Source of the DNA: a virus | Lineage: Duplodnaviria; Heunggongvirae; Uroviricota; Caudoviricetes | Length of the DNA: 26,470 nucleotides | Strand: one strand, 5' to 3' | Virus record (IMG/VR): IMGVR_UViG_2802429219_000004 | Shown: one piece after another, positions 7,782 through 26,470 of the stretch | Layout: the number at the start of each line of letters is the position of its first letter | How positions within the stretch are numbered: position 1 is the first letter of the stretch | The notes under the pieces: model-generated | What the model was told of the DNA's origin: nothing | Databases searched by the model: none | What the model saw: only the letters and a program-made list of their open reading frames with translations | Translations under genes and position numbers: made by a program

Positions 7782-7841
7782 CATGTTCTCCACCTGCAAA
7801 AAAGCCCCGGATAACCGGGGCAAATGATGAGTATCGTCCTG

Positions 7842-8585: not shown

Positions 8586-8595
8586 TGCCACCTCC

Positions 8596-9584: not shown

Positions 9585-9595
9585 CCCATACCTCT

Positions 9596-9871: not shown

Positions 9872-10187
9872 TGAGTTTTACCGGCACTTCTTCTGCACTG
9901 GTTCCGGCATCTGCCCAGACAACCCCGACCAGCGGATCAGAGCCGCTGTTAGTCAGCTGAACTTTTCCGGACTTCAGATAAACCTTCTTACCCGTTTTCA
10001 TGTCATCCGTTTTCAGCTTAGGCAGCATAAACACACCTTCGGTCATGCCGTCGCCTGTTTCACCCTGTGGAATATCGGTCAGCGCCACCGCAAAAACATC
10101 ACCCACCTGCACCAGATCTCCGCTGCTGATGGCTGCACTGGCAACAATCGCCACCGTTTTTCCTTCTTCTACAAAATTCTTTGCCAT
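9864..10187 (-). CDS. Small head-module protein (DUF2190-like; possible head decoration or completion protein)
   Basis: ORF 9864..10232 trimmed to ATG at 10187 (MAKNFVEEGKTVAIV...), preceded by a GGAGA SD. Sits immediately downstream of the capsid gene. Family name is from memory and uncertain. Confidence 0.5.
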   Translation of the reverse strand: MAKNFVEEGKTVAIVASAAISSGDLVQVGDVFAVALTDIPQGETGDGMTEGVFMLPKLKTDDMKTGKKVYLKSGKVQLTNSGSDPLVGVVWADAGTSAEEVPVKLNV

Positions 10188-10273
10188 AACTGTCTCCGCA
10201 CAGCCCCGTTCAGGGGCTGATTTCAGGTACAAAAAAAGCCCTTACGGGCCATCAGAGTTGTTGTCTGCGACGT

Positions 10274-12232
10274 TTACGCCGTACATTTCACCAGACCGCG
10301 GTGATCAACTGGCGCGACACCGGCGTCAATACGCACTTTCGTTGTCACGCCATCCACACTGAAGCCCTCCATCTGATCAATATATGGCGTATCCACACCG
10401 TTGAGATAAGCCACTTCAATCGTATCGGAGCCTTTTGACGCAGCCAGGTAGAAGGTGGTCTGGCTGTTATCATCAAGACGAGGCTCTGCAATAACGGTCG
10501 CAAAATCTTTCACCGGGTTAATAATACCGGCGTTAATGTCAGCCCCCTTGACACTTGAGGAGCGAATGACCTGGTTAGCAACAGACTCCATCGCCGTCGG
10601 TACCAGTACGAACGCAGGACGAATATTCAGATGACGCTCCCCCTCTTTCTGAACGCGCATCAACTGGCGGGCTTTATCCAGCGATGCCACGTCCATTGCA
10701 GCGCTCTCCAGTACGTTTGCATGTTTCGCTTTATCGAACAGATTTACATTATCTGTGGAGATTTTCGGGTTAGACGTCAGAATGGCATAAACCAGATCGG
10801 CAATAGTGGATTTCGCCGCACGGCCCAGTTTCATCGGGACATCGGTCAGCATATTCAGATCATCATTGATAATGGCCTGACGGGTGATACTGAACAGCTC
10901 GCCATAGGTCGCCAGTGCAATAGTGGCCTGTTTATCTCCGGTGGTGACGTATTTATATTCCGCCCCTTCACGCACCTGACGCAGAGCACTGAAGCCCCCC
11001 ATACCCACACGATGGGCAATTTTAAAATCAGACAACTGACCTTTCCGCGTCCACTGTTCATAGGTTTCAGGGGCATCTTCCCAGCCCTGCAGAATGGCTT
11101 TGTTCGCAACATCCAGCAGAATATTACCGAAGTCAGACGTACTGTGTGTGAACGCCGCACCGACCATCTGCATCGGGTTATAACTGGAAACCCCAATACC
11201 CCGTTCAGTCAGTGACATACGGGCATATTCACGCAGGGTCATCCCGTTGTAGACATTATCACGTTCGGTTTTTTCAAATCCGGCACGCGCCATCAGCGCC
11301 TGGCGGATCCCGTCCCCCACAAAATTACCGTTACCGGCATAAATATGAGCCGGGGTATTTTTATTGGATGGCGTGGACTCGCGCCCCATCTCGTTCAACA
11401 GCTTTTCGCGGGCCTGCTCCAGCGAACATTCAGGATCGGCAAGACACTGAGCCTGCAGCGACTGATAACGCCCGCCAAACATGGCAAACAGATCATTAAT
11501 ACCGTTTACACGCGCTTTTTGCTCTGCCAGGACCTGCGCACGGATGCTGTTTTCATCCACCACGGGTGCTGCTGCCTGCACTGGCGTCCGGGAGGCTGCA
11601 GGTTCATCATCCTGTACGCGTGGAGCACTGTTGCGTGGCGGAGTAATCATGTTTCGAATGGATTCCGGCATCTTTTTAAATTCCTCTGTACGTTTTGACT
11701 GAATACATGCCATTGCCTTAACGGCTGGCGTTACCTGATCAGCAAATCCATGTGCCAGACATTCGGCACCGGACATCCAGGTCTCATCCGCCAGCATGGC
11801 AGCAATTTCATCGGTGGTTTTCCCGGTTTTCTGTGCATAAGCGGGTAACAGAACCGCCTCAACTTTATCGAGCAGGTCGGCATAGGTGCGCATGTCCTCC
11901 GCATTACCGCCCGTAAAGCCAAATGGTTTATGAATCATCATGAAGGTGTTTTCCGGCATAATGACCGGGTTTCCCACCATCGCAATGACCGACGCCATTG
12001 ACGCCGCCATACCGTCGACATAAACGGTAATGGACGCACCATGTGTTTTCAGCGCATTAAAAATGGCGATGCCTTCAAAGACATCGCCACCCGGTGAATT
12101 AATATGGAGATTAATGTGGGTGATATCGCCCAGTGCATTCAGATCACTGATAAACTGCTTCGCTGTAACACCCCAGAAACCAATCTCGTCATAAATATAA
12201 ATATCCGCGTCACTCTGGTGACCAGCCTGCAT
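10274..12232 (-). CDS. Prohead protease (ClpP/S49-like) fused to HK97-fold major capsid protein, helper copy
   Basis: ORF 10274..12493 trimmed to ATG at 12232 (MQAGHQSDADIYIYDEIGFWG), 13 nt after the portal stop. N-terminal half has a ClpP-like SPGGDVFEGIAIFNAL motif; the C-terminal half is capsid-like. The track's longer N-terminal extension overlaps the portal gene and is rejected. Confidence 0.85.
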   Translation of the reverse strand: MQAGHQSDADIYIYDEIGFWGVTAKQFISDLNALGDITHINLHINSPGGDVFEGIAIFNALKTHGASITVYVDGMAASMASVIAMVGNPVIMPENTFMMIHKPFGFTGGNAEDMRTYADLLDKVEAVLLPAYAQKTGKTTDEIAAMLADETWMSGAECLAHGFADQVTPAVKAMACIQSKRTEEFKKMPESIRNMITPPRNSAPRVQDDEPAASRTPVQAAAPVVDENSIRAQVLAEQKARVNGINDLFAMFGGRYQSLQAQCLADPECSLEQAREKLLNEMGRESTPSNKNTPAHIYAGNGNFVGDGIRQALMARAGFEKTERDNVYNGMTLREYARMSLTERGIGVSSYNPMQMVGAAFTHSTSDFGNILLDVANKAILQGWEDAPETYEQWTRKGQLSDFKIAHRVGMGGFSALRQVREGAEYKYVTTGDKQATIALATYGELFSITRQAIINDDLNMLTDVPMKLGRAAKSTIADLVYAILTSNPKISTDNVNLFDKAKHANVLESAAMDVASLDKARQLMRVQKEGERHLNIRPAFVLVPTAMESVANQVIRSSSVKGADINAGIINPVKDFATVIAEPRLDDNSQTTFYLAASKGSDTIEVAYLNGVDTPYIDQMEGFSVDGVTTKVRIDAGVAPVDHRGLVKCTA

Positions 12233-12245
12233 CCTGAACCAGGAA

Positions 12246-13754
12246 TTATTCTTCGGACTGGTCGTCGGTGTGCTGCGGCTCCTGTCGTTTCGTTGCGGCA
12301 CTGCTGCCTCCTTTATCACTGGCCGGATCGGTATCAAATACCAGATCCAGCTTGCGGTTTTCATCAATTTCGGCCTTGCGCCGACGTTTGACATCATCCG
12401 GATTACGACCACCAGCACGTACCCAGTCTGATTCTGTCGCCGCTCCACCACGAATCTGGATTTTCCAGGCCTCAGCCTCCTTAACAGGGTCAATCCACGG
12501 CATCACTGGTCCGGAATACACCGCGGTATACAGTGAAGAACGGTCAAGATCGCGGGGTAACCTGATAACACCGGATGCCACAGCCTGTTTCAGCCATGCA
12601 CGATACATCGGGCGGGTGACGGCACCAATAAACCAGTCCTGCAGGATCAGGTAGCCATCAGTAGACTCAACCAGCTCCTGACGCTGGGCGCTGTAAGTGC
12701 CGTTATAGTTGCGCGCTGTACTGGAAAAACTCAGACGACTGCCAGCCGCCACTGCACGCAACTGACCATTACGAAAAGTTTCAAGATTAGGATTGGGGCG
12801 ATCCGACTTCACCATTCCAATTTCTTCGCCGGGTTTCAGATCGTCGTAAATAATGCCTGGCTGAATGGTAAGCTCGCGTTCCTTATCCTTGCTGCCATTA
12901 CCATCCGGTTCATAGCTCTGCCCGTCGCCTTTGCGGATGTACATCCCCAGAGCAGCGGCGATCCTTGCTGCAGTCAGCTCAGAATCTTCATACTCTTTCA
13001 GGGCACTGAGGCGGATCAGCACACCGGACAACAAAGACGTCCCGCGCATCTGGTGCAGACGGCGAACAAATTTAAGATGCAGCATTCGCTCTGCATCCAC
13101 TTCTTTGGTTTCCATCTGCCGTCCGGATACGGGACGGCTTTTATACACCAGATATTTTTCGGGACGCCCCCAGTCATCAACAAACACGCCCTGATTCAGC
13201 CTGTTGCTCTCATCACTGGTCATGGGAATAAAGTCTGGCTCGAGCGCCTCCAGCCAGAAATGAACACCGGCAGAAGGCGTCAGGCTGTTTATGCGCCCGG
13301 AAACCATCTGGGCAAACACCTCACCATCGCGCAGCCAGGTACGCAGCATCAGACGTTCCAGCATCGGACGGGTAAACTGCCCGGTGACTTCCGGGCTGAC
13401 AGACCATTCACTCCATCGGGTGCGAATCTCCGCTGCCAGATCACGGGCAATGGCCCCATTGCGTAATACCGGATGTGGCTCGACAATAATCCCGTTTTTC
13501 CCCACCACCCGTTCTTCCAGCTTGTCAAATACACCAATAACCAGATCGTGGTTGTTATCAAGGTAACGGGCCTGCTCACGTAACGACACGGCCCCGTACT
13601 GGCTTAACTGGTCGGCAGTTCGGTTTTCCCGCCGGGCTTTGTGTGTCCGCGTCGTTTTTACGGCCTCATAAGCCTGGATCACCGCACGGGAACGCAGCCT
13701 TGCCGCTTTCCATCCTGGTGAAAAAACGCCAATCACATCATCAAGAATTGCCAT
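12246..13754 (-). CDS. B: Portal protein
   Basis: ORF 12246..13826 trimmed to ATG at 13754 (MAILDDVIGVFSPGWKAARLRSRAV), which overlaps the W stop (TGATG). About 502 aa, located between W and the capsid gene. Confidence 0.85.
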   Translation of the reverse strand: MAILDDVIGVFSPGWKAARLRSRAVIQAYEAVKTTRTHKARRENRTADQLSQYGAVSLREQARYLDNNHDLVIGVFDKLEERVVGKNGIIVEPHPVLRNGAIARDLAAEIRTRWSEWSVSPEVTGQFTRPMLERLMLRTWLRDGEVFAQMVSGRINSLTPSAGVHFWLEALEPDFIPMTSDESNRLNQGVFVDDWGRPEKYLVYKSRPVSGRQMETKEVDAERMLHLKFVRRLHQMRGTSLLSGVLIRLSALKEYEDSELTAARIAAALGMYIRKGDGQSYEPDGNGSKDKERELTIQPGIIYDDLKPGEEIGMVKSDRPNPNLETFRNGQLRAVAAGSRLSFSSTARNYNGTYSAQRQELVESTDGYLILQDWFIGAVTRPMYRAWLKQAVASGVIRLPRDLDRSSLYTAVYSGPVMPWIDPVKEAEAWKIQIRGGAATESDWVRAGGRNPDDVKRRRKAEIDENRKLDLVFDTDPASDKGGSSAATKRQEPQHTDDQSEE

Positions 13755-13966
13755 CAGAACCTCGCCAGCCGGTACCCGGGATGCCCCCGTCGTCGTGTAA
13801 TCAGAGCCGCAAGGCGGCGCTCCCACTCCTGCCGTCCCTGCCGGATCTCAGATAAGTTTTCCATGGTCATCTGCTGACCATTAAAAGTGACGGATTTTCC
13901 GTCCAGCACCGCCATTTCAGCTTCCGTATAACGCTGAATCATGGCTTCAATATCATTCTGATTCAT
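13754..13966 (-). CDS. W: Head-tail connector / DNA stabilisation protein (gpW-like)
   Basis: About 70-aa ORF ending RRRGHPGYRLARF, like the lambda W C-terminus. Its ATG at 13966 overlaps the terL stop (ATGA). Lies between terL and portal as in lambda. Confidence 0.7.
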   Translation of the reverse strand: MNQNDIEAMIQRYTEAEMAVLDGKSVTFNGQQMTMENLSEIRQGRQEWERRLAALITRRRGHPGYRLARF

Positions 13967-15075
13967 AACCATCCTCCGGAAGTCAGCCAGGGGTTAACAT
14001 CGTCAGTTACTGTTTTCTTCCGTTTTTGTTTTTTAACAGGCGTGGGTACCGGTTCCGGTGAGGGTGACGGTTCGGTACTGTCCGGGACACACTCCAGCCA
14101 GGTTTCCCGGCTCGCCCACTCCGGTGCATCCGGCCAGCGGATCTTTTCGTATCCATGCAGAATGACCAGCGCCTCGGCATACACCATCAGGTCAAAAGCT
14201 TCGTTGGCACCGCGACCCGGCTTACTCCATTTCCCGTCACTGCTCCGCTCTTCATACGTCAGTTCGTCGTAAAACCAGCTCCCCAGCCAGTCAGGGAAAT
14301 GCACATAGCCTGGACCTGGCGAGTCACGCCATAACGCGTTATTCACCCGGTCTTTCAGGGCATCCGTCTGAAGAAGCCAGAGCGGCACATCACCTGCGGC
14401 CTGCGCCCGGCGGCCCGTTCGTCCGGTGTTATCAGGGAATGTACGGCTGATCAGTTTTGCGCGCCGGATGCTGTCGCCCTTAAACAGGTAAATACGTTTA
14501 CCAAGGCCATCACGACGGCAACGACGCCAGAATTTATAGGCATTATCAGTGACCCCGTCTTCACCGCCGGAGTCCACCGCCATTGCCATCAGTCGCATTT
14601 GTTGAGAAGGATCGGAGGCCAGCGGCCAGCTTTTATGAAAAACATCCGTCAGCAGGACATCCCAGTCTTCCGGATAGCTGGCCGGATCAATTCGCTGGCT
14701 CTCCCCGTCGCAGTCACTGCGCAATGACTGCGTGATGTTGTAACGATCAATAATCCAGCGTTCGCCACGGCTGCCATAGCCCGTTACCTGAACCACAAAA
14801 CGGCGATGACGTCCCGCCTGCACATCCACTGTCGCCACAAGGAAATTAACGCCATCCGGAACACTGCGGGAAGGAACTGGCTCTGCCCGCTGCTCAAGCA
14901 GTTCACTTTTTCGTTGCTCCATGCTGGCACGAGGAAGATAAGGCAATCCCCAGTCGGTGTTGATAACCGCCCTGAGTGTTTCTTCGCTTCCTGTCGCTTC
15001 ATACTCCTGTTCTGCAGTCAGTAATTTGTAAACCAGTTGCGCCCAGGTCTGATACGCAGCAGCTGGCCCTTCCAT
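13963..15075 (-). CDS. A: Terminase large subunit (gpA-like), C-terminal segment of a gene split by island insertion
   Basis: 370-aa ORF directly upstream of W and portal. Resembles the lambda gpA C-terminal half (WIIDRY, GPGYVHFP, NEAFDLMVYAEAL). It begins exactly at the CATCCAG core; its first residues MEGPAAAYQTW continue in register from the ...ASFWM end of the fragment at 25811..26380. Confidence 0.8.
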   Translation of the reverse strand: MEGPAAAYQTWAQLVYKLLTAEQEYEATGSEETLRAVINTDWGLPYLPRASMEQRKSELLEQRAEPVPSRSVPDGVNFLVATVDVQAGRHRRFVVQVTGYGSRGERWIIDRYNITQSLRSDCDGESQRIDPASYPEDWDVLLTDVFHKSWPLASDPSQQMRLMAMAVDSGGEDGVTDNAYKFWRRCRRDGLGKRIYLFKGDSIRRAKLISRTFPDNTGRTGRRAQAAGDVPLWLLQTDALKDRVNNALWRDSPGPGYVHFPDWLGSWFYDELTYEERSSDGKWSKPGRGANEAFDLMVYAEALVILHGYEKIRWPDAPEWASRETWLECVPDSTEPSPSPEPVPTPVKKQKRKKTVTDDVNPWLTSGGWL

Positions 15076-15082
15076 CCAGGAA
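15073..15082. repeat. Left attachment-site core (attL): CATCCAG followed by GAA
   Basis: CATCCAG at 15073..15079 is identical to 25814..25820. Flanking bases are partly conserved (CCCT upstream, AA downstream). Sits exactly at the break point of the terL reading frame. Confidence 0.65.
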
Positions 15083-15384
15083 GAAGTAAATAAAAGGTAA
15101 CTAAATGATTATAAGGTACTATTGAGTTATGCCCCCTACAACATAGTCCCAGATTTAGTACCTGCTTAAGCGATAAAAAAGCAAAAAAGGAAGCAATATT
15201 AATTATTGCCGCTATGCATGATCACAATGACAAATCAGAGGCGGAATTCCGCTCTCGGAACTCACATATGAGAAACGATATTTCTTCCACCGATACCCTT
15301 TATTTGGGTATCGCAAGTAAGCCCCAAAATCTGGGTGTTACTCTTACTACCCAAACTACGGGTAGTTTCCGTAATTTCATGGTC

Positions 15385-15404
15385 GAGTTGCAGATCTGCA
15401 ACTC
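15385..15404. promoter_or_regulatory. Perfect 20-bp palindrome GAGTTGCAGATCTGCAACTC in the island arm next to attL
   Basis: Exact reverse-complement symmetry read from the sequence. Lies in the roughly 370-bp non-coding arm between orf95 and the attL core. Candidate protein-binding site; function unknown. Confidence 0.4.
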
Positions 15405-15449
15405 ACCCACCAGCCAACGCACTTTTGCGCTATCAGGAATATCAACAAA

Positions 15450-15737
15450 TTACCGCCGCAACCATTCCGGCTTCTTCCACTGATAAGTATTTTTCGCGCT
15501 CTCCCTCCGTTGTTGAGAACGGCGACGGTATGCCAGCAACTCAAGGACTCTGGTTCGTATGTTGCGCATATCCACGCCGTTAAGCTCAATACCGTCACGG
15601 CGCATCACCTCAGCCACCACACGCGCGTAATTTTCAGCGGTGACTGTATCCGGCTGCGCGGCCTGTTCGTCAGCCAACTGGCTAATTCCACCAGCACAGC
15701 GGATTAATCGCAGTATTTCAGATTCGGTCATTATCAT
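15450..15737 (-). CDS. Hypothetical protein (95 aa), translationally coupled to terS
   Basis: ATG at 15737 overlaps the terS stop (ATGA). N-terminus SEILRLIRCAGGISQL weakly resembles the N-terminus of lambda gpA as I remember it. Function unknown. Confidence 0.5.
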   Translation of the reverse strand: MIMTESEILRLIRCAGGISQLADEQAAQPDTVTAENYARVVAEVMRRDGIELNGVDMRNIRTRVLELLAYRRRSQQRRESAKNTYQWKKPEWLRR

Positions 15738-16219
15738 GCCTGTTTTGCGACCTCATTCACTACGTCATTTTTTACCATCCGGCTGATAATCTGATTACAC
15801 AAATCGTCAATAATTGACTGCACTCTGTTTACTGCCATCGGTTTAAGCCCAACATCACGTGCCAGAATACTGGGGAGTTTTTCCAGTTCCTCGCTTACGA
15901 TTTCTCCCCATATAGCCATCTCTTTTCGCACATCATCGGCGGGTATGAGTTGCGCCGTTTCCTGTTCGAACTTGAGGCGCTCACGTTCGGACTGATACCA
16001 GGCCTTACGGTCGTGTGGCTCCATTTCTTCCAGTGATGCCGGAACGGGAAGATCAAGAAAACAGGTCAGAATGTCAGTCACCCGATAGAGTTTCAGCTTG
16101 TCATGTCCTCCGGCTGGCTGGATATTTTTCAGCCTTGCCGCCGCAGTCTGGCGACATATTCCCGCTATCGCCGCCAGCTGGTTAATGTTCAGCATCAGAT
16201 TTTTCAGTTCCCGATCCAT
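15734..16219 (-). CDS. Terminase small subunit (Nu1-like), island-encoded
   Basis: ORF 15734..16276 trimmed to ATG at 16219 (MDRELKNLMLNINQLAAIAGICRQTAAARL), with a GGAG SD 6 nt upstream. N-terminal HTH resembles lambda Nu1 (NKKQLADIFGASIRTIQNW). Lies immediately downstream of cos-like repeat 1, as Nu1 follows cos in lambda. Confidence 0.75.
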   Translation of the reverse strand: MDRELKNLMLNINQLAAIAGICRQTAAARLKNIQPAGGHDKLKLYRVTDILTCFLDLPVPASLEEMEPHDRKAWYQSERERLKFEQETAQLIPADDVRKEMAIWGEIVSEELEKLPSILARDVGLKPMAVNRVQSIIDDLCNQIISRMVKNDVVNEVAKQA

Positions 16220-16372
16220 ACCCGCTCCAGAATGTTTTAAAAATGCATCTTGCAAATATCTTTTAAAAAAGGTCAAAAAACGCGCTGCATGTTGAACACA
16301 AAATAAGCAAAATTAACATACCAAAAATAAAAACACTTAAAATTCAATATAATAGAAAGATGATGATGACGA

Positions 16373-16445
16373 ATGAAAATGCAAAAACTAGCCTTTTTCC
16401 GCGCCGCTCCCGCCCCGTGGCAGGTCACTACACCGGGAGGACCCG
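16373..16445 (-). other. cos-like element, copy 1 (cosQ/cosN-like), upstream of island terS
   Basis: Minus-strand reading ATGGGTCCTCCCGGTG...CACGGGGCGGGAGCGTCGCGG resembles lambda cosQ (GGGTCCTTTCCGGTG) and cosN (GGGCGGCGACCT, then CGCGG), with 34 versus 35 nt spacing. 70/73 identical to copy 2 at 18908..18980. Confidence 0.55.
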
Positions 16446-16470
16446 TAAAAAAAGGCGGCTATCGCCGCCC
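16446..16470 (-). terminator. Intrinsic terminator after the island capsid gene
   Basis: Hairpin GGCGGC-tatc-GCCGCC (16454..16469) followed on the minus strand by a run of 7 T, starting a few nt after the capsid stop codon at 16477. Confidence 0.6.
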
Positions 16471-16476
16471 TTGTTG

Positions 16477-18390
16477 TCATGCTCCACTCGATTTCAGTAA
16501 TCCGCGATAGTCGAGGGCCGCGACACCTGCATCTATGCGCACCTTCCAGGCGACGCCATCAACAGTAAATCCCTCCTGCTCCTCAAGATATGGCGTATCA
16601 ATACCATCAAGATAAGCGACCTCTATCGTGTCCATCCCCTTCGCCGCTGCCACATACCACTCCTTGTTATTGGCTTTATCAAGACGCGGCTCGACGATAA
16701 CCTCTGCCATATCTTTCACCGCGTTAATGATGCCGGGGTTCTGATTGATAGTGCCTCCACCATCAATCGGAAAGAGTGATGACGATGACAGAATGGCGCG
16801 ATGTGCGGCAGACTCCAGCGCAGCAGGGACCAGAACAAAAGCGGGGGTAATATTCAGGGAGTCGCCGTTGGCATCCTCCTGTAATCGCATCAGCTTACGG
16901 GCTTCGTTAAGCCCCTCCATGTCCATATCCTTCGCAATAAGATTTTTATGATCGGCATGGAATAACGCTTTACCATCCGTAAATTTGCCGTTGCTGGTTA
17001 ACAGAAGATAAACCAGATTACCTACTGTTCTGGCGGCCGCACGCCCCATCGCCATGGGGATTGTAGTTAACTGGGTCAGGTCATCGTTGATAATGGCCTG
17101 ACGGGTAACAGAAAAAATATTACCGTATGTGGCCAGCGCAATAGGTACACCTTTATCGCTGGTGGTGATGTATTTATATTCCGCACCTTCCGGTACTTTA
17201 TCCAGCTTTGAAAAACCATTCAGACCAACGCGCTTTGCTTCATGAAAGTTTGAAAGCGATCCGGTACGCGTCCATTTCTGGAACGTTTCGCCGCTGTCCT
17301 GCCAGCCTTTCAGCACTGACTTTTCAGCACCACCAGCCAGAATATGAGAAAAATCGCTGCTGCTGTGTGTGAAAGCTGCATTAACGACCTGCGAGCGATT
17401 TAAAAAACTGCCAACACTGATACCACGATCAGTTAGTGATGCCTGGGCCATTTCAAAAAGGCTCATCATCGCATAAGGATTTCCCCGCTCTGGGCGTTCA
17501 TACCCGAGACGAGAATAAAGCCCCTGACGAATTGCATCGCCTGTTATGTTCCCGTTACCGGCATAAATATGAGTCGGGATATTTTTATTGGATGGCGTGG
17601 ACTCGCGCCCCAGCTCGTTCAACAACTTTTCACGGGCCATCTCCGGTGTACATGATGCATCCTCCAGGCACGCCATTTTGATCCCGTCGTAACGACTGCC
17701 GAACAGGCTAAACACTTCACTTATTCCGTTGATGCGCTTCTGTTCATTACCAGCAATATTGGCTGCTCCCTGTGGCGGGATAATCATTCCTTTAATGGTT
17801 TCCGGCATGTGTGAAAAATCTCCTGTGCGTTTCGATTCAATTCGCGCCATTGCTGTGACAGATGGCAACAATTCATCAGCAAAACCGTGCTTAAGGCATT
17901 CTTTCCCGTCCATCCAGGTTTCATCTTCCAGCATGGCGGTAATTTCCTGTGCTGATTTGCCCGTTTTTCTGGCATAAGCAGGGACTAACACGGTTTCCAC
18001 CTTATCCAGCAAATCAGCATAATCACGCATATCACCAGCATTTCCGCCAGAGATACCCCACGGCTTATGTATCATCATCATGGCGTTTTCCGGCATCACA
18101 ACACGATCGCCAGCCATTGCGACAACCGAAGCCATTGAAGCCGCAACACCATCGATATAAACCGTAATTTCTGCCGGATGATTCCGTAACAGGTTATAGA
18201 TGGCGATGCCTTCAAACACGTCACCACCTGGCGAATGGATCCGCAGGTCGATATGTGAGACATCGCCCAGGGCTTTCAGGTCTTCCGCAAACTTCTTCGC
18301 GGTAATACCGAAGCCGCCAATTTCTTCATAGATGGATATTTCTGCCGCTCCGCGAACACCCAGCGCCTTAATGGTGTACCAGTGATTCAT
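16477..18390 (-). CDS. Prohead protease (ClpP/S49-like) fused to major capsid protein, island paralog
   Basis: 637-aa ORF with ATG at 18390. Has the same SPGGDVFEGIAIYNLL protease motif and capsid C-terminus (TIEVAYLDGIDTPY) as the helper gene at 10274..12232, but is diverged elsewhere. Confidence 0.85.
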   Translation of the reverse strand: MNHWYTIKALGVRGAAEISIYEEIGGFGITAKKFAEDLKALGDVSHIDLRIHSPGGDVFEGIAIYNLLRNHPAEITVYIDGVAASMASVVAMAGDRVVMPENAMMMIHKPWGISGGNAGDMRDYADLLDKVETVLVPAYARKTGKSAQEITAMLEDETWMDGKECLKHGFADELLPSVTAMARIESKRTGDFSHMPETIKGMIIPPQGAANIAGNEQKRINGISEVFSLFGSRYDGIKMACLEDASCTPEMAREKLLNELGRESTPSNKNIPTHIYAGNGNITGDAIRQGLYSRLGYERPERGNPYAMMSLFEMAQASLTDRGISVGSFLNRSQVVNAAFTHSSSDFSHILAGGAEKSVLKGWQDSGETFQKWTRTGSLSNFHEAKRVGLNGFSKLDKVPEGAEYKYITTSDKGVPIALATYGNIFSVTRQAIINDDLTQLTTIPMAMGRAAARTVGNLVYLLLTSNGKFTDGKALFHADHKNLIAKDMDMEGLNEARKLMRLQEDANGDSLNITPAFVLVPAALESAAHRAILSSSSLFPIDGGGTINQNPGIINAVKDMAEVIVEPRLDKANNKEWYVAAAKGMDTIEVAYLDGIDTPYLEEQEGFTVDGVAWKVRIDAGVAALDYRGLLKSSGA

Positions 18391-18596
18391 TGCTCACCCC
18401 CAGATGCAAAACCATTCTTATCAAGCCACGCGTTAACTGCGTGTCTGACAATCTGCGCCGCACCTGGTAATGGTTGGTCAGGATGATGATTTATGTGGTC
18501 GATCCTGTACTGCTTAAGGCGCATAACGGTCTGCGCATCCAGATGAACGGAACCACCTTTTACCTCGCCTGTGTTCAGGTCGTTAATACAATTCAC
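18387..18596 (-). CDS. Hypothetical small protein (69 aa), translationally coupled to the island capsid gene
   Basis: GTG start at 18596 preceded by AAGAGGAAG. Its stop overlaps the capsid ATG (ATGA). Predicted strand-helix-helix pattern (SVHLDAQTVMRLKQYRIDH...AAQIVRHAVNAWLDKNG) suggests a ribbon-helix-helix fold. The helper has no equivalent gene upstream of its capsid gene. Confidence 0.5.
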   Translation of the reverse strand: MNCINDLNTGEVKGGSVHLDAQTVMRLKQYRIDHINHHPDQPLPGAAQIVRHAVNAWLDKNGFASGGEQ

Positions 18597-18696
18597 AGTA
18601 ACTTCCTCTTACTGACTAAACTGCGCGCATTATTGATCGATAAAAGTGGTAGATAAACATATTTCTATCATAAAAATAGATTAATCAGATTCAGAC

Positions 18697-18721
18697 ACAA
18701 AAAAGCCGGAGAGAATCCGGC
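18697..18721 (-). terminator. Intrinsic terminator between cos-like copy 2 and the small-protein/capsid operon
   Basis: Hairpin GCCGGA-gagaa-TCCGGC (18705..18721) followed on the minus strand by TTTTTTGTG. Confidence 0.5.
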
Positions 18722-18907
18722 ATAAATATCCCGCCATCTGAACACGTTTTGCACAGGCAACTCCATCTGGCAGGTGAAAAACCAATTTATTTATATATTT
18801 CAATTAATTGCAAACTGGTCTAATGACAGGGAGAAAAAAATATTGTACAGGTGAAAACAGAAATAATTTTTAATTATCAATAAATTATCACACATGCTGC
18901 CGCCGCC

Positions 18908-18980
18908 ATGAAAATGCAAAAACCAGCCTTTTTCCGCGACGCTCCCGCCCCGTGGCAGGTCACTACACCGGGAGGACCCA
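18908..18980 (-). other. cos-like element, copy 2
   Basis: 70/73 identical to copy 1, same orientation, 2535 bp away. Directly follows the ssb terminator. Sequence flanking the 73-bp core differs from copy 1. Confidence 0.55.
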
Positions 18981-19003
18981 TAAAAAAGCCGGATTGCTCC
19001 GGC
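18981..19003 (-). terminator. Intrinsic terminator after ssb
   Basis: Hairpin GCCGGA-ttgc-TCCGGC (18988..19003) followed on the minus strand by TTTTTTA, downstream of the ssb stop at 19020. Confidence 0.6.
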
Positions 19004-19019
19004 TTCTGTTACTCGTTGC

Positions 19020-19442
19020 TTAAAACGGTATTTCATCCCCGTACGGATCATCATTTCCCGCCTGTTGTTTTGCCCTGTTCAGTGCGTCAGTGACCTGCCC
19101 CAGTTGGCCTTTTTTACCACCTGGTCGCGCCGTTCTGGCACTGATTACACTGTCTGCGATAACCTGCCAGCCCTGCCGTATTTCGCCGTTCTGGCCTGTC
19201 CACTGGTTCACCTGCATGTTACCAGCCACGCTCAGGAGTTCCCCCTTGCGGTGCTTTGCCAGCGCTTCGGCCTGCCTGCCAAATGCCAAGACGGATAACC
19301 ACATCGTCGCCGTTCCGTCATCTGCCTGGCTGCATGGCAGCGGGACCGCCATACTCGCCATTGCCATTTGTGTACCCTTGCTGGTGGTCTTTAACTGCGG
19401 GTCATTTGCCAGCCGCCCGTAAGCTGCTATCTGTGCTGTCAT
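19020..19442 (-). CDS. ssb: Single-stranded DNA-binding protein (SSB-like)
   Basis: 140-aa ORF with an OB-fold-like core (MWLSVLAFGRQAEALAKHRKGELLSVAGNMQVNQWT) and an acidic C-terminal tail ending DDPYGDEIPF, like the SSB DDDIPF tip. ATG overlaps the stop of the upstream orf81. Confidence 0.7.
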   Translation of the reverse strand: MTAQIAAYGRLANDPQLKTTSKGTQMAMASMAVPLPCSQADDGTATMWLSVLAFGRQAEALAKHRKGELLSVAGNMQVNQWTGQNGEIRQGWQVIADSVISARTARPGGKKGQLGQVTDALNRAKQQAGNDDPYGDEIPF

Positions 19443-19684
19443 GCTGTCTGCTCTCCGGACTTAATGTTGATGGTTGTCACTTCCTCCGCTTCGGCAATCT
19501 CCCGTTCGGTCAGTGTGGCAAAGTTTGCAGCTGCCGTTGTCATGAATGCGCTAATCAGTTCGGGATGTGCTTTCGCATATCCTTCCCCGGCGTTGCGGTC
19601 GATGATTTTTATCGACACCCTTAACCAGTGTTCCGTCAAATCAAGAGCGTGCGATTGTGTTTTTTTTGTGTGCTTCGCTGTCAT
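19439..19684 (-). CDS. Hypothetical protein (81 aa) between the origin and ssb
   Basis: ATG at 19684; translationally coupled to ssb. No recognisable motif. Confidence 0.45.
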   Translation of the reverse strand: MTAKHTKKTQSHALDLTEHWLRVSIKIIDRNAGEGYAKAHPELISAFMTTAAANFATLTEREIAEAEEVTTINIKSGEQTA

Positions 19685-19735
19685 AGGCTTTATCTCACAG
19701 CAATAAATTAAAATTTTTGTATTTTAACTCTTCAT

Positions 19736-19958
19736 CTGTTCACCTTTTTATATTTTCCCTTTCAATTCAAAATGTTAAGTGGTGAACAGTTTCACAAAAA
19801 CTATTCACCGACTGTTCACCACTGTTCACCCTTAAAGATCGATAAATAATCAAAAAGGTGAACAGTGAATAGTTTAGTGAACAGTTCATAAATAACTGTT
19901 CACCCTATAATATACTGATATAAAAGATATTTATGACAGGGTGAACAGTGGTGAACAG
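19736..19958. repeat. Putative replication origin: iteron array of GTGAACAG in AT-rich DNA
   Basis: Nine perfect 8-mers in both orientations: GTGAACAG at 19782, 19858, 19877, 19941, 19951 and CTGTTCAC at 19736, 19812, 19822, 19896, often extended to GGTGAACAGT. Lies immediately 3' of the primase/helicase gene, as in SaPI/PICI origins. Confidence 0.65.
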
Positions 19959-19971
19959 TTATTCCATAAGT

Positions 19972-21831
19972 TTAATTTTTGCTATCGTCATTAGTGACCG
20001 ATACACATGATGGCATCCAGTCTTCTGATTCCTCCGTCAGGGTCACGTTTGAACGCAAACCGTGCTTCGTTTTCCGTTTCATATACTCCCTGCCATATTC
20101 CGCCATTGCCCCCGGCATATCTTTACCGAAGCGCGTCAGTGTTACAGGTTTACCAAACCCATGTGCCCTCATATAAGCCAGATAGGCATGATAGAGATAC
20201 CTGCGTGGGCTGAATGGCACAATTTCAGCATTACCCACTAACAGGCCATCACACATTACCGATGCCATGAGATAGCCGCAGAAGTCCACCAGCGAATCCC
20301 CCTCTCGCTTTATCGCCAGTGCTTCTTCAGATTTCTGCTGCTCATATAACAGGCGTCTGGCTTCGTCCTGATCAGCAAATCGTGTAAGCAGATGACGAAT
20401 CACTACCGCCAACTCACCTTCTATTTTTTCCGCCAGCATCGAATCGCGTTCGTTCTCCGGTACAACTTCCGAAAAATTGAATATCACCCGACGACGTGAG
20501 ATCCCCCCGCTGCGATCACTGAATGACATGGCGTTATTGTTAACCGCCAGCACTACTGCCGGAATACGCGTTGAATAGGGGGCTTTGTGTTTCGGGTCAA
20601 TTGCCACCTTGTCACCGCCTGTAATGGCCTTAATCCCTGCCCCATCACCAGCGTAGCGGGTCATATCCGGCATGATAATCAGCGAAAAGCCAACCACTAA
20701 CGCGCGTTCCCTTGCGTCTTCCAGCGCCTTCATGCTTGCTGATACTGTATTAGCCTTACCCGCCAGCATGGTGCAAATCTCCGCCATCACGCTTTTACCG
20801 CTTCCCCCCGGCCCTGTTACCTCAATGAATAACTGCCAGTCGTACCGGTTCGCCAGCACCATGAATAATGCCGCCAGTACACGATCTGCCTTGCGGTCAT
20901 TCTCAGCCACCGAACGGCGCAACCACTTCCAGAAATTCGGCGCATGTGTTGCCAGCGTTTCCCCCTCTGCTGGTGGGCTGAACGGTAATTCACTGGCAAT
21001 TAACAACCAGTCATTTTTGTTATGCTTCCGAAAATTACCTGTCCGGGTATCAAATACCCCGTTACTGAATCCAATCAGGTTACGGGCTGTATTCCCCATC
21101 ACAGGCAAGCTTAACTTCATGGTATCGACCGCCGATTTAATGGCGTTCTGCGAATAGCTGATCTCCGCATCAATGAAAATCTGCGCCATAGCACGCTGTA
21201 ACTCTTTATCCTGTACTGGCTCCCATACAACGCCGTTGTAATGGTGAACAGTGTCAGAGTCGGCATGAATCGCCAGTTCACCGCCATAACGTGCTAGGAG
21301 GACTTCACCGCGTTGACTTGCTCCCATCTGGTTAAGCGCCAGTGATGAAGCCTTATCGTCTTTTATCCGCTCTTTTTTCTTTACAGGCAGTTCAACTACT
21401 TTTTTACTTTCTGCTAATTCCCTGCTGCTCATAACCAGACTTTCTCCGCGTTCATATTCAGCTTTCAGCCCGGCAAGGCGCGGCGACCAGTCCTCCGGCG
21501 ATTCCTTATCTGCAAAGCTCCGCCAACAACGTGCATTTTGCACACCAGCAACTGCAAGTAAGGTGGCGATCTGCGTAAGACTGCGCTCTGTGATATGTCC
21601 TGCGCAATAAATGCGTACACATTCACGACCATCATCAATGATCCGGTAGTCGGTGATGTTTTTCAGTTGCTCATCAGCCAGCACAACAGGCGGCACGTTG
21701 TCGGCAGCAATATGTTTACCTGCCCACTCCTGCCACTCTTTCGCATGGCTCCACGCATCACTACCCGCAAAGATGATTACCTCTGTCAGTCTGTCGCGTG
21801 GCTGTTTTTTTAAGTTCGGTGCAAGCTTCAT
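19972..21831 (-). CDS. Replication initiator: primase/helicase (D5-N-like plus SF3/P-loop helicase)
   Basis: 619-aa ORF with Walker A GPGGSGKS and a Walker B-like LIIMPD. Size and position (upstream of the iterons) fit a PICI/P4-type Pri-Rep. ATG overlaps the stop of the upstream 99-aa ORF. Confidence 0.8.
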   Translation of the reverse strand: MKLAPNLKKQPRDRLTEVIIFAGSDAWSHAKEWQEWAGKHIAADNVPPVVLADEQLKNITDYRIIDDGRECVRIYCAGHITERSLTQIATLLAVAGVQNARCWRSFADKESPEDWSPRLAGLKAEYERGESLVMSSRELAESKKVVELPVKKKERIKDDKASSLALNQMGASQRGEVLLARYGGELAIHADSDTVHHYNGVVWEPVQDKELQRAMAQIFIDAEISYSQNAIKSAVDTMKLSLPVMGNTARNLIGFSNGVFDTRTGNFRKHNKNDWLLIASELPFSPPAEGETLATHAPNFWKWLRRSVAENDRKADRVLAALFMVLANRYDWQLFIEVTGPGGSGKSVMAEICTMLAGKANTVSASMKALEDARERALVVGFSLIIMPDMTRYAGDGAGIKAITGGDKVAIDPKHKAPYSTRIPAVVLAVNNNAMSFSDRSGGISRRRVIFNFSEVVPENERDSMLAEKIEGELAVVIRHLLTRFADQDEARRLLYEQQKSEEALAIKREGDSLVDFCGYLMASVMCDGLLVGNAEIVPFSPRRYLYHAYLAYMRAHGFGKPVTLTRFGKDMPGAMAEYGREYMKRKTKHGLRSNVTLTEESEDWMPSCVSVTNDDSKN

Positions 21832-24410: not shown

Positions 24411-25649
24411 TCAACCATTTACTATTCTCAAACCTTTCTTACCACCGGATCTATTAATTACCCCTTTTCTCGCCTCATCAAAAAAATCTCCTACCCATTG
24501 CATCATAATTTTGCGTTGTTCTAAATAAGTAGTTCTATTATAAATATCTCTTATTTTATCACCACTTTTATGTGCTAATGCAGCCTCAATAACATCAGGG
24601 TTAAAACCCTCCTCATTTAAAAGCGTACTCCACATCGAACGAAAACCGTGTAACGTTACAATCCCTTTGAACTTGCTGGCAGCAATTGGGGTATTGATAG
24701 TATTCTTTCCCATAGGAGCATCTTTTGTTCTGGAGGAAAAAAATATATAACGCCCTCTTTTTATTTCCTGCATTGTTCTTAGGATTCTAATAGCCTGTGA
24801 TGAGAGAGGCACAACATGTTCACGATGGCATTTCATTTTATGCGCGGGGATAATCCACAAGCCAGAATCAAAATCAATCTCGGACCACTCTGCTTTAATC
24901 GCCTCACCTGGCCTGACCATTGTCAATATCTGGAATAAAAGTGCATTGTGAGCTATTTGATACTTATGAGGCACACTATCCCACCAACTCAGAAATTCAG
25001 GCAATCTTTCAACAGGTAGTGCAGCTAATGATTTATTTTTCTTTCCTGTGAATGCAGTTTTTATCTTAAGTAATGGATTCGTTTTCAATGCTCCACAATT
25101 TACAGCGTAATTCATAATTTCATTTAATCTTGATATTAATTTTTTTTGCAACGCATTCTTATCGGATACGGCATCCAGAGCATTAATAGCTACTGGCGCT
25201 GTAATTTTCTCTATGCTGTACTTACCAAAGAAAGGAACAAGATATTTGTATACTTCATATTCGATATTATACAGCGTAGGTTTCCGCAATTCCGATCCCT
25301 TTTTAAAAGCGATCCATGCATTAGCAACAGCTTCAAATGTTTGTAGATTTTTTAGTGACATCTCAATTTTACGATTTTTCTTCTCTGTCACTGGATCAAC
25401 TCCACGTGCAATCATTCGCCGAAGTTCATCACGTACTTCCCGTGCTTCCGCGAGTGAGAATTCAGGAAAACGCCCTATCGTGTATGTCTGCCGTTTCTTC
25501 GTTATCGGATGGCTATAACGGAAACGCCACACTTTCCCACCAGCTTTACTCACATTCAGCAATAAACCGAACCCATCATAAACGGCATAGTCCTTTTCAC
25601 GTGGTTTCATTCCCTTAACTTCAGTCACAGTTAATGGCTTTACCGGCAT
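24411..25649 (-). CDS. int: Tyrosine integrase, P4 / CP4-57 type
   Basis: 412-aa ORF. N-terminal arm-binding-type region (LTVTEVKGMKPREKDYAVYDGFGLLLNVSKAGGKVWRFRY) and C-terminal catalytic region with HGFRSMWSTLL and a downstream His/Tyr. Start lies about 160 bp from the attR core. Confidence 0.9.
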   Translation of the reverse strand: MPVKPLTVTEVKGMKPREKDYAVYDGFGLLLNVSKAGGKVWRFRYSHPITKKRQTYTIGRFPEFSLAEAREVRDELRRMIARGVDPVTEKKNRKIEMSLKNLQTFEAVANAWIAFKKGSELRKPTLYNIEYEVYKYLVPFFGKYSIEKITAPVAINALDAVSDKNALQKKLISRLNEIMNYAVNCGALKTNPLLKIKTAFTGKKNKSLAALPVERLPEFLSWWDSVPHKYQIAHNALLFQILTMVRPGEAIKAEWSEIDFDSGLWIIPAHKMKCHREHVVPLSSQAIRILRTMQEIKRGRYIFFSSRTKDAPMGKNTINTPIAASKFKGIVTLHGFRSMWSTLLNEEGFNPDVIEAALAHKSGDKIRDIYNRTTYLEQRKIMMQWVGDFFDEARKGVINRSGGKKGLRIVNG

Positions 25650-25810: not shown

Positions 25811-26380
25811 CTACATCCAGAAACTGGCGATACGGGAGCGGCGCGGTTCACCGGAAACGTTGCCGTTACGATCAATGACCTGACCTTCACGCAACCAGAC
25901 TCCTGCACTATTGAGCTCACGCTTTTTCTCCGCAGTGATAATGCCGCTGCAGTGCGGGCAAAGTAGATACGCCGCCTCACTGGCTTTAAAGGGATCCGGT
26001 TCATTACGGTAGCCGGTCATGGCATCCATAGCTGGCTGAAAATATTCACCGCAGTGCGGACATGGCCAGTACCAGCGGCGGCGGTCACCACGATTGTAAA
26101 GGGAAAGAATACCAGTCGTCGGTGGCGCTTCATGAGGCGACTTACGTCGCCATTTGCTGTCGCAGATGTCACGTCCCGGCGAGCTCTCCACCAGAGTCAT
26201 CCCGGCGGACATAAATGTGGTGGTACGTTTTGAGGCCAGGGAGAAACCATCACCCTCGCTGTCGATATTCTCCGGAAAACGGTCGTAATCGGTTAAGGCG
26301 ACAAACCGGTAATCCGACGACGACATAATGTTGACCGAGGGCCTGTCAACGCCACGATGTTTGACCGTTATTTGCCATTT
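25811..26380 (-). CDS. A: Terminase large subunit (gpA-like), upstream segment of the split gene; 5' end unresolved
   Basis: Frame open from the stop at 26381..26383 to TAG at 25811; first ATG at 26326. Contains WYWPCPHCGEYFQ and LLCPHCSGII, resembling the CPHCGE region of lambda gpA. Ends ...RSRIASFWM, continuing in register with MEGPAAAYQTW at 15075. Confidence 0.7.
   Translation of the reverse strand, partial: KWQITVKHRGVDRPSVNIMSSSDYRFVALTDYDRFPENIDSEGDGFSLASKRTTTFMSAGMTLVESSPGRDICDSKWRRKSPHEAPPTTGILSLYNRGDRRRWYWPCPHCGEYFQPAMDAMTGYRNEPDPFKASEAAYLLCPHCSGIITAEKKRELNSAGVWLREGQVIDRNGNVSGEPRRSRIASFWM
25814..25823. repeat. Right attachment-site core (attR): CATCCAG followed by AAA
   Basis: Identical 7-bp core to 15073..15079. 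Lies in the last codons (F-W-M) of the terL N-terminal segment, which then hits TAG immediately. Confidence 0.65.
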
Positions 26381-26470
26381 TCATGCCCGCTAAATACTTT
26401 CGTTACTGATGCTGTCCGCTTTCCACCATTTCATCATCACTGATTGGCGTTGTGTTTTTGGTCAGCACTC

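What the first reader, a model, noticed from the sequence alone, without database searches (positions are those of the whole stretch)
16373..18980. Two near-identical 73-bp cos-like elements in direct orientation, each immediately after an intrinsic terminator
Elements at 16373..16445 and 18908..18980 are 70/73 identical while their flanks are unrelated. Read on the minus strand they resemble lambda cosQ plus cosN (GGGTCCTCCCGGTG ... GGGGCGGGAGCGT CGCGG versus lambda GGGTCCTTTCCGGTG ... GGGCGGCGACCT CGCGG). Copy 1 sits just upstream of island terS, as lambda cos precedes Nu1. Copy 2 sits upstream of the island capsid operon and is followed by different sequence, including CAGGTGAAAAC repeated at 18771 and 18848. 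Two same-orientation cos sites 2.5 kb apart in a 10.7 kb element are unexpected: one may be an initiation site and the other a termination-only site, or the spacing may relate to packaging into a smaller capsid. All three differences between copies would be non-synonymous in the overlapping 43-codon ORF, arguing the conservation is at DNA/RNA level.
Basis: partly seen in the sequence, partly recalled or inferred. Interest (0 to 1): 0.75.

Follow-up and report, generated by a model that had tools for sequence, protein, structure and literature searches.

The report
Two cos packaging sites in a satellite
The two repeats are real lambda-type DNA-packaging (cos) sites of a 10.7-kb phage satellite sitting inside a prophage's terminase gene; two cos sites in such satellites are already documented, but here they are direct, bracket the satellite's capsid gene, and carry two different recognition flanks.

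Summary
The repeat is real: 16373-16452 and 18908-18987 match at 77/80 (70/73 as reported), and each follows a strong terminator hairpin. Both are lambda-type cos cores (cosQ GGGTCCT, then ACG|GGGCGGGAGCG[G/T]|CGCGG).

The genome records of phages cdtI and Tritos start exactly at the predicted nick of copy 2. The cdtI record also ends at ...CTGCCACG.

The 10,741-bp island is a PICI satellite inserted in terL of a lambdoid E. coli prophage, a helper-embedded PICI as described in 2023.

The two flanks are two different cosB regions:
- **Copy 2:** the complete cos of cdtI/Tritos/HannyBb-type phages (about 91% identity), up to the first codons of their terS, which is deleted.
- **Copy 1:** an island-specific cosB followed by the island's own TerS homologue.

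This layout recurs in about 155 E. coli genomes, on several PICI backbones and with three different capsid modules. Natural single-cos derivatives lacking the capsid gene also exist.

Two functional cos sites were already shown for the prototype EcCICFT073 (2018, 2019), there inverted and flanking rppA. I therefore call this a new variant of a known kind, of moderate interest. The "termination-only" and "small capsid" ideas are not supported.

The parts
16373..16452 (-). cos copy 1 core. cosQ GGGTCCT lies at 16444-16438. The predicted 12-nt cohesive end GGGCGGGAGCGG lies at 16415-16404, followed by CGCGGAAAAAGGCTAGTTTTTGCATTTTCAT.
16220..16372 (-). cosB-side flank of copy 1, running to the island terS start. 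It is 70% identical to the cosB of type-1 helper prophages and 89-97% identical among related islands.
15734..16219 (-). Island TerS homologue (DUF1441, 161 aa). It is 67.6% identical to helper type-1 TerS, and its C-terminal half is diverged.
15450..15737 (-). Conserved 95-aa PICI protein of unknown function, 73% identical to the last gene of EcCICFT073.
16454..16470 (-). Intrinsic terminator after the capsid gene, abutting cosQ of copy 1.
16477..18390 (-). Island ClpP-like prohead protease / major capsid protein fusion (637 aa), 56% identical to the helper's paralogue at 10274-12301.
18387..18596 (-). Small ORF (69 aa) that precedes the capsid gene in all related islands.
18705..18721 (-). 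Terminator-like hairpin that replaces the body of the deleted phage terS.
18743..18907 (-). cosB-side flank of copy 2: the complete cosB of cdtI/Tritos/HannyBb-type phages (about 91% identical). It includes two TTTTCACCTG motifs (plus strand 18771-18781 and 18848-18858), the RBS and the first ~5 codons of their terS.
18908..18987 (-). cos copy 2 core. cosQ lies at 18979-18973. The predicted cohesive end GGGCGGGAGCGT lies at 18950-18939. Position 18950 corresponds to base 1 of the cdtI and Tritos genome records.
18986..19003 (-). Intrinsic terminator after ssb, abutting cosQ of copy 2. The same terminator-cosQ junction is seen at EcCICFT073 cos1.
19020..19442 (-). Island single-strand DNA-binding protein.
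19972..21831 (-). Island D5-type primase-helicase.
24411..25649 (-). Island tyrosine integrase.
25814..25820 (-). attL core CTGGATG, the junction between the terL N-part and the island.
15073..15079 (-). attR core CTGGATG, the junction between the island and the terL C-part.
13963..15075 (-). C-terminal part of the interrupted helper terL (98.6% identical to phage cdtI TerL).
25811..26326 (-). Fragment of the N-terminal part of the interrupted helper terL (100% identical to cdtI TerL over 171 aa).

Best explanation
Both elements are lambda-type cohesive-end sites of a 10.7-kb PICI satellite that is integrated, co-oriented, inside the terL gene of a lambdoid prophage.

The shared 75-80 bp is the part read by the helper's large terminase: cosQ, the cosN nicking site with a 12-nt end GGGCGGGAGCG[G/T], and about 30 bp beyond it. 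Each core is joined to a different cosB, the part read by a small terminase.

- **Copy 2** is the whole cos of cdtI/Tritos/HannyBb-type phages, with their terS gene deleted. It should therefore be recognised directly by the TerS of a helper of that type.
- **Copy 1** has an island-specific cosB and is followed by the island's own TerS homologue. That protein would pair with helper TerL and direct it to the island.

The island thus has two entry routes into helper capsids (inferred).

The 2.5-kb interval does not matter during packaging. A lambda-type terminase cuts a downstream cos only when the head is nearly full, so concatemers of about four units (40-45 kb) would be packaged, as reported for EcCICFT073 (inferred).

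The two direct copies also form a recombination substrate, or a terminase cut-and-rejoin substrate, that removes the capsid module.

**Shown:** the sequence identities, the positions and the recurrence. **Inferred:** cleavage, TerS specificities and packaged length.
For: 1. **Match to cos.** On the minus strand both copies read ACGGGTCCTCCCGGTG...CCACG|GGGCGGGAGCG[G/T]|CGCGG, which is collinear with lambda cosQ-cosN.
2. **Helper cos.** In a genome 100% identical to window 15600-19800, the helper prophage's own cos lies just upstream of its terS and has the same core (L001 31572-31498).
3. **Phage termini.** The cdtI and Tritos records begin at GGGCGGGAGCGT, equivalent to window 18950. The cdtI record ends ...GGGTCCTTCCGGTGGGGTGGCCTGCCACG.
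4. **Same catalytic subunit.** The interrupted terL in the window is 98.6-100% identical to cdtI TerL.
5. **Copy 2 flank.** It is 90-91% identical to type-2 phage cosB as far as the terS start codon. Copy 1's flank is 70% identical to type-1 helper cosB. The two flanks are 54% identical to each other.
6. **Recurrence.** 154-158 of 5426 E. coli genomes hold the full arrangement. It occurs on PICIs at four different integration sites.
   - Two further variants, each with its own capsid module, also keep a cos-like site on each side of the module.
   - In all three variants the two flanks differ, and in variant A (this window) and variant C one of the two flanks is a clear copy of a helper cosB.
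7. **Precedent.** EcCICFT073 has two cos sites with the same cosN and different cosB. Each drives plasmid transfer, and deleting both abolishes island transfer (PMC6092414, PMC6739421).
8. **Not a generic repeat.** The element occurs once per genome at the median and is intergenic in all listed hits.
Against: - No cleavage, binding or transfer data exist for this island.
- I could not verify that the cdtI and Tritos record ends were determined experimentally. One related record (mEp460_4F5) starts 5 nt upstream of the predicted nick.
- In EcCICFT073 only one of the two cos sites is needed, and deleting the other slightly raises transfer. The second site could therefore be dispensable here too.
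- In variant-B islands the position-2 site has a degenerate cosQ (AGGTAC) and cosN, which looks like decay.
- All four sampled terL-embedded islands of this type sit in type-1 helpers, not type-2. Copy 2 has no cognate TerS in at least the genome behind L001 (one place only).
- The copies differ at base 12 of the cohesive end, although this base is polymorphic at both positions across islands.
Confidence: 0.6

Rival explanations
1. Copy 2 is a by-product of late-gene capture, that is, recombination with a cdtI-type phage at cos. It is a cleavable or dead leftover with no selected role. Copy 1 together with the island TerS is the only site that matters.
For: - In EcCICFT073 the second cos is dispensable, and removing it raises transfer.
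- PICI late zones are mosaic, and capture of helper late genes has been proposed (PMC10111431).
- Single-cos derivatives without the capsid module exist, with 100% identical TerS and 95-aa protein (L085, L100).
- The position-2 site is degenerate in variant B.
- The sampled resident helpers are type 1.
Against: - The phage terS is cleanly removed while cosB stays 90-96% conserved, including both TTTTCACCTG motifs.
- The arrangement persists in about 155 genomes on at least four backbones.
- An independent variant (C) also keeps an intact helper-type cosB at position 2, next to a different capsid module.
Confidence: 0.3
2. One reading: one copy is an initiation site and the other a termination-only site, or the 2.5-kb spacing is tuned to packaging into a smaller, island-built capsid.
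For: - The shared segment (cosQ, cosN and about 30 bp) matches what lambda needs for termination (established knowledge of lambda cos).
- The island encodes its own protease-capsid fusion, shorter than the helper's (637 against 675 aa).
Against: - Both copies have a full cosB-type flank.
- The spacing varies with the inserted genes (2439, 2535-2537, 3319-3350 bp).
- The island lacks portal, terL and scaffold genes.
- EcCICFT073's capsid gene is not needed for transfer, and that island is packaged at phage length (PMC10111431 citing PMC6092414).
Confidence: 0.08
3. The repeat encodes a small RNA or a small protein, or is a generic intergenic repeat unrelated to packaging.
For: A 45-codon plus-strand ORF overlaps each copy.
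Against: - No Rfam family matches.
- All three differences are non-synonymous, and the ORF is antisense to every neighbouring gene.
- The element occurs about once per genome and was found only at prophage or PICI cos positions in every locus inspected.
Confidence: 0.02

Closest known systems
EcCICFT073, the prototype Gram-negative cos-type PICI with cos1 and cos2 (Fillol-Salom et al. 2018 ISME J, PMC6092414; 2019 Mol Cell, PMC6739421)
   Same: - It follows the same gene order: int, regulators, Icd-like, DUF4222, primase, SSB, small ORF, capsid gene, cos, packaging-specificity gene, conserved 93-aa gene.
- It has two cos sites with helper-type cosQ/cosN and divergent cosB.
- The same terminator-cosQ junction (CCGGAG.AATCCGGCTTTTTT(T)ATGGGTCC) is seen at its cos1 and at window copy 2.
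   Different: - There the two sites are inverted, about 0.8 kb apart, and flank rppA downstream of the capsid genes (L002 10529 on the plus strand and 11339 on the minus strand). Here they are direct, 2.5 kb apart, and bracket the capsid gene.
- cosN there is the lambda type GGGCGGCGACCT.
- Its specificity factor is Rpp. Here there is no Rpp homologue, but a TerS homologue instead.
- Its capsid is lambda-E type, not a ClpP-capsid fusion.
- It is integrated in the chromosome, not in a prophage.
Helper-embedded PICIs (HE-PICIs; Tommasini, Mageeney and Williams 2023, PMC10111431)
   Same: - The satellite is integrated inside, and co-oriented with, a prophage late gene. Cognates of lambda gene A are among the reported targets.
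- It shows the four zones Integration, Bro, Replication and Late, and a late zone with a captured capsid gene.
- A nested PICI-in-PICI at the ClpP domain is also seen here (L083, L084).
   Different: - That paper discusses only a single shared cos-like 258-bp stretch for its model island and does not describe paired cos sites.
- The doubled TGTATTGC arm motif reported for HE-PICI attP is not found in this island.
- The same two-cos late module also occurs on chromosomally integrated PICIs with other integrases.
cos of lambda and its relatives, with shared cosN/cosQ but exchangeable cosB-TerS specificity (lambda versus phage 21; phages cdtI, Tritos, HannyBb, mEp460)
   Same: - The order is cosQ, about 20 bp, cosN, cosB, terS.
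- Copy 2 is about 91% identical to the cdtI/Tritos/HannyBb cos.
- Copy 1 with terS is about 75% identical to phi458/mEp460-type cos-terS.
   Different: - A phage has one cos per genome.
- At copy 2 the terS gene that should follow cosB is deleted after about 5 codons.
Capsid-forming PICIs (cf-PICIs; Alqurainy et al., bioRxiv 10.1101/2022.09.08.507074)
   Same: It is a satellite that carries its own capsid protein and its own small terminase.
   Different: cf-PICIs encode all the proteins needed for capsid production and packaging (abstract listed). This island has only the protease-capsid fusion and a TerS homologue.

Membership tests
lambda-type cos site | cosN: a G-rich 12-nt cohesive-end sequence flanked by ACG and CGCG | tested here: met
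   Both copies read ACG|GGGCGGGAGCG[G/T]|CGCGG, against lambda ACG|GGGCGGCGACCT|CGCGG.
lambda-type cos site | cosQ (GGGTCCT) about 20-30 bp upstream of cosN | tested here: met
   GGGTCCT begins 29 nt before the predicted nick in both copies.
lambda-type cos site | cosB (TerS-binding region) between cosN and terS | tested here: inconclusive
   By homology only. The copy 2 flank is 90-91% identical to phage cosB, with two TTTTCACCTG motifs. The copy 1 flank is 70% identical to helper cosB and abuts terS. TerS binding was not tested.
lambda-type cos site | Lies immediately upstream of terS-terL | tested here: not met
   Neither copy meets the full criterion. Copy 1 is followed by a terS homologue but not by terL. 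At copy 2 terS is deleted after about 5 codons.
lambda-type cos site | Cut by terminase to give cohesive virion ends | not testable with these tools
   Indirect only. The cdtI and Tritos genome records begin at the predicted nick, and the cdtI record ends at it. How those ends were determined could not be checked.
Gram-negative PICI | About 10-20 kb, bounded by att repeats, with int, AlpA-like HTH, Bro, Icd-like, primase/ori, SSB and late zone in one orientation | tested here: met
   10,741 bp with CTGGATG cores. Gene content from Pfam and RefSeq annotation.
Gram-negative PICI | Helper-induced excision, replication and high-frequency transfer | not testable with these tools
   No experimental data are available.
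Rpp-type cos PICI (EcCICFT073 group) | Encodes an Rpp protein next to the functional cos | tested here: not met
   tblastn with RppA finds nothing in the window. A DUF1441 TerS homologue occupies that position.
Rpp-type cos PICI (EcCICFT073 group) | Two cos sites with the same cosN and different cosB | tested here: met
   Cores are 93% identical and cosB sides 54%. Orientation and position differ from EcCICFT073.
HE-PICI | [quoted passage not shown] | tested here: met
   terL is split into an N-part (25811-26326) and a C-part (13963-15075). RefSeq annotates both halves as partial terminase.
HE-PICI | Doubled TGTATTGC motif at fixed distances around attP | tested here: not met
   No match near either att end. 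The only hit with 3 mismatches is at 12513, outside the island.
HE-PICI | Integrase in the 11capE integrase clade | not tested
   No phylogeny was made.
cf-PICI | Own portal, terL, head-tail connectors and capsid | tested here: not met
   Only the protease-capsid fusion and a TerS homologue lie inside the island.

The most novel reading that the evidence does not exclude
Pairs of direct cos sites define a terminase-delimited cassette in PICIs. The capsid module between them can be lost, or gained and swapped between satellites and phages that share cohesive ends, by cos-to-cos cutting and re-annealing. The two different cosB flanks would at the same time let one satellite exploit two terminase specificities. 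This would be a mechanism for the late-gene capture and the broad helper range of these satellites.
Probability: 0.15. Interest if true: 0.65.

Novelty: new variant of a known kind. Interest (0 to 1): 0.4.

Why it matters
PICIs move virulence and defence genes between enterobacteria, and cos recognition decides which phages can move them. A satellite with one helper-copied cos and one private cos plus its own TerS would have two packaging routes. That predicts a wider helper range than a single-cos island.

The same family sits inside terL of Stx2a prophages in O145:H28 (L004). There it both blocks terminase expression until it excises and carries the Stx phage's cos type.

The direct pair also explains the natural capsid-less derivatives. 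It offers a simple test: delete each cos and challenge with type-1 and type-2 helpers.

It does not overturn anything. Two cos sites and helper-embedded PICIs are both published.

Tried and rejected
- **Cross-genus survey.** I took 72 loci anchored on the island primase in other Enterobacterales. I scanned them with a cos motif and by self-BLAST for short repeats. No general duplicated-cos pattern appeared. Most repeats were att sites, and lambda-type cores occurred singly (Kluyvera L007, L013). The paired layout therefore looks confined to E. coli lineages.\n- **Virion termini in IMG/VR.** I scanned for the terminator-cosQ junction hoping for virion contigs that end at cos. The 18 hits are almost all prophage calls from isolate genomes, so they give no information on termini. 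They were still useful as extra instances.\n- **Literature on cdtI ends.** Asakura 2007 is not held.\n- **HE-PICI supplementary tables.** Searches for GpA-type site names and for strain IMT16316 found nothing.\n- **Repeat motifs in the copy 1 flank.** A search for co-varying TerS-binding repeats gave only weak candidates. I make no claim from it.\n- **Helper type from terL.** I dropped an inference that the window's helper is type 2 because its terL matches cdtI. L001 has similar terL DNA next to the island (97.3% identity over the query as a whole) but a type-1 terS.\n- **Fixed-spacing motif searches.** Two searches with a fixed spacing failed only because I had miscounted the spacer.
Full report
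**Observation**

The window holds one two-copy direct repeat at 16373-16452 and 18908-18987 (77/80 identical, 2535 bp apart). The sequence beyond it is unrelated: the cosB sides are 54% identical. A 40-nt core and a cosQ...cosN motif each hit only these two places, with none expected by chance.

Nearly all genes are on the minus strand. On that strand each copy begins right after a hairpin plus U-run. Both hairpins fold at -16.2 kcal/mol, with z = -3.5 and -4.0. The plus-strand ORF over the element is 45 codons, and all three differences are non-synonymous. No Rfam family matches anywhere in the window.

**Context**

Window 15600-19800 is 100% identical to E. coli IMT16316. RefSeq annotation of that locus and Pfam give this order on the coding strand:

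1. Prophage lysis genes, cos, terS (DUF1441) and the terL N-part
2. Island genes: int, HTH, Bro-N, Icd-like, DUF4222, primase, a hypothetical gene, SSB
3. Copy 2
4. A small ORF and the ClpP-capsid fusion gene
5. Copy 1
6. DUF1441 (TerS homologue) and a 95-aa protein
7. The terL C-part, then portal, the helper's own ClpP-capsid fusion and the tail genes

The junctions share CTGGATG, which gives a 10,741-bp insert in terL. This is the helper-embedded PICI configuration published by Tommasini et al. 2023 (PMC10111431). The doubled TGTATTGC arm motif they report is absent here.

The terL halves are 98.6-100% identical to phage cdtI TerL.

**The elements are cos sites**

On the minus strand both copies read ACGGGTCCTCCCGGTGTAGTGACCTGCCACG|GGGCGGGAGCG[G/T]|CGCGGAAAAAGGCT.GTTTTTGCATTTTCAT. 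This is collinear with lambda cosQ-cosN (lambda sequence in PMC6092414 Fig. S5).

The helper prophage's own cos, just upstream of its terS, has the same core.

The strongest evidence comes from a search with copy 2 and its flank. That search hits the very first bases of the phage cdtI and Tritos genome records. Base 1 of both corresponds to window 18950, the first G of GGGCGGGAGCGT. The cdtI record ends ...GGGTCCTTCCGGTGGGGTGGCCTGCCACG. I could not check how those termini were determined.

The 80-nt element occurs in 831 of 5426 E. coli genomes, once per genome at the median, and lies in unannotated DNA in all 40 hits listed. It is therefore not a generic repeat.

**The flanks are two different cosB regions**

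- **Copy 2.** Downstream homology to cdtI/HannyBb (about 91%) runs through the whole cosB. It then breaks into a terminator-like hairpin. I call this type 2, with TerS beginning MSNVSGIG.
- **Copy 1.** The flank aligns with the cosB of type-1 helpers (TerS beginning MDRELKNL) at 70%. It is followed by an island TerS homologue 67.6% identical to the helper's, with a diverged C-terminal half.

There is no Rpp homologue in the window.

**Recurrence**

The full arrangement is present in 154-158 E. coli genomes. It occurs on several backbones:

| Backbone | Loci |
|---|---|
| PICI embedded in prophage terL | window, L001, L005, L092, L098, L101 |
| PICI at nfeF-mug / tRNA-Ile | L081 |
| PICI at cspD-clpS (spacing 3320 bp because tail-gene fragments are inserted) | L082 |
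| tRNA-Ile2 PICI itself invaded by another HE-PICI in its ClpP domain | L083, L084 |

Two further variants keep a cos-like site on each side of a different capsid module:

- **Variant B** (O121:H19, and O145:H28 inside an Stx2a prophage). Position 1 matches the Stx2 helper's cos type. Position 2 is a degenerate site whose cosB side is only weakly type-1-like (about 60% identical to type-1 helper cosB).
- **Variant C.** It has a lambda-E-type capsid plus decoration genes. Position 2 has about 105 nt of near-identical type-1 helper cosB, then a terminator and no terS. Position 1 has an EcCICFT073-like cosQ.

Loci L085 and L100 are single-cos derivatives: SSB, then a hybrid cos made of copy 2's upstream junction and copy 1's cosB, then terS and the 95-aa gene. 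Both proteins are 100% identical to the window's. The small ORF and the capsid gene are missing. This is the product expected from recombination between the direct copies. It is equally what would result from terminase cutting at copy 1 and at the next copy 2, followed by end annealing.

Across islands the spacer between cosQ and cosN varies at position 1. Base 12 of the cohesive end is polymorphic at both positions. The near-identity seen in this window therefore reflects local homogenisation.

In other genera, PICIs with a related primase show no such pair.

**Comparison with what is known**

EcCICFT073 has two cos sites with lambda-type cosN and non-phage cosB. Each drives plasmid transfer. 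Deleting cos1 lowers island transfer, deleting cos2 slightly raises it, and deleting both abolishes it. RppA-TerS recognises the cos1 cosB. I located the two sites in CFT073: 10529 on the plus strand and 11339 on the minus strand of L002. They are inverted, about 0.8 kb apart, and flank rppA downstream of the capsid genes.

Two cos sites in a PICI are therefore not new. Several things differ here:

- The orientation is direct.
- The pair brackets the capsid module.
- A helper-copied cos is combined with a private cos plus a TerS homologue.
- The layout recurs across different capsid modules.

Searches for two-cos PICIs and for HE-PICI literature found nothing that describes this layout.

**Mechanism**

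I propose two packaging entry sites that share the TerL-read core but differ in TerS specificity.

From established lambda biology, downstream cos cleavage needs a nearly full head, and termination needs cosQ, cosN and the adjacent segment. The 2.5-kb interval would therefore be skipped.

Related phages are 44.5-47 kb. The candidate packaged lengths are:

| Route | Length |
|---|---|
| Same site to same site, 4 units | 42.96 kb |
| Copy 1 to copy 2 | 40.43 kb |
| Copy 2 to copy 1 | 45.50 kb |

These figures are arithmetic from the coordinates, not measurements.

The main rival is that copy 2 is a tolerated relic of late-gene capture. The EcCICFT073 cos2 result, the decay in variant B and the type-1 resident helpers all favour it.

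**Verdict**

The cos interpretation is strongly supported. The claim that two cos sites are unexpected is weakened by precedent, and the termination-only and small-capsid ideas are unsupported. This is a new variant of a known kind, of moderate interest.

Noticed in passing
window 26344-26470: The last 127 bases are unrelated to terL. No E. coli genome in the collection has this junction. The search that includes this stretch finds thousands of places, 1718 of them on plasmids, so it is probably the end of an insertion sequence. It truncates the terL N-part, so island excision could not restore terL in the source genome.
   Followed up: partly
window 19811-19959: A perfect 22-nt inverted repeat built from the iterated ACTGTTCACC, lying just downstream of the primase gene. 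It is probably the island's replication origin, since PICI origins are reported downstream of pri.
   Followed up: no
L004 (NZ_AP024924, O145:H28), about 3770-14190: A relative of the island without a terS gene is embedded in terL of an Stx2a-converting prophage. Its position-1 cos matches that phage's cos type (GGGCGGGCGGCG). The same island in O121:H19 (L003) sits in a helper with a different cos type.
   Followed up: partly
L085 about 5880-7340; L100 about 500-1950: Natural single-cos derivatives that lack the small ORF and the capsid gene. Their hybrid cos consists of copy 2's upstream junction and copy 1's cosB, and their TerS and 95-aa protein are identical to the window's.
   Followed up: yes
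L083 and L084, about 11350 onward: A chromosomal PICI carrying the same late module is itself interrupted, within the ClpP domain of its capsid fusion gene, by a second PICI that has its own single cos-like site. This nested configuration is already reported by Tommasini et al.
   Followed up: partly
L091 8402-13940: A deletion derivative in which helper cos and terS are followed almost directly by the island's SSB, copy 2, capsid gene, copy 1 and terS. That gives three direct cos sites within 4 kb.
   Followed up: no
window 10285-12208 versus 16491-18345: Five repeat families at 71-78% identity. They reflect two paralogous ClpP-capsid fusion genes, the helper's and the island's (56% identical at protein level).
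   Followed up: yes
window 15080-15450: About 370 bp of non-coding DNA between the 95-aa gene and attR, containing short palindromes such as TACCCGTAGTTTGGGTA and CGATACCCAAATAAAGGGTATCG. These may be integrase or excisionase arm sites. The published HE-PICI TGTATTGC motif is absent.
   Followed up: partly
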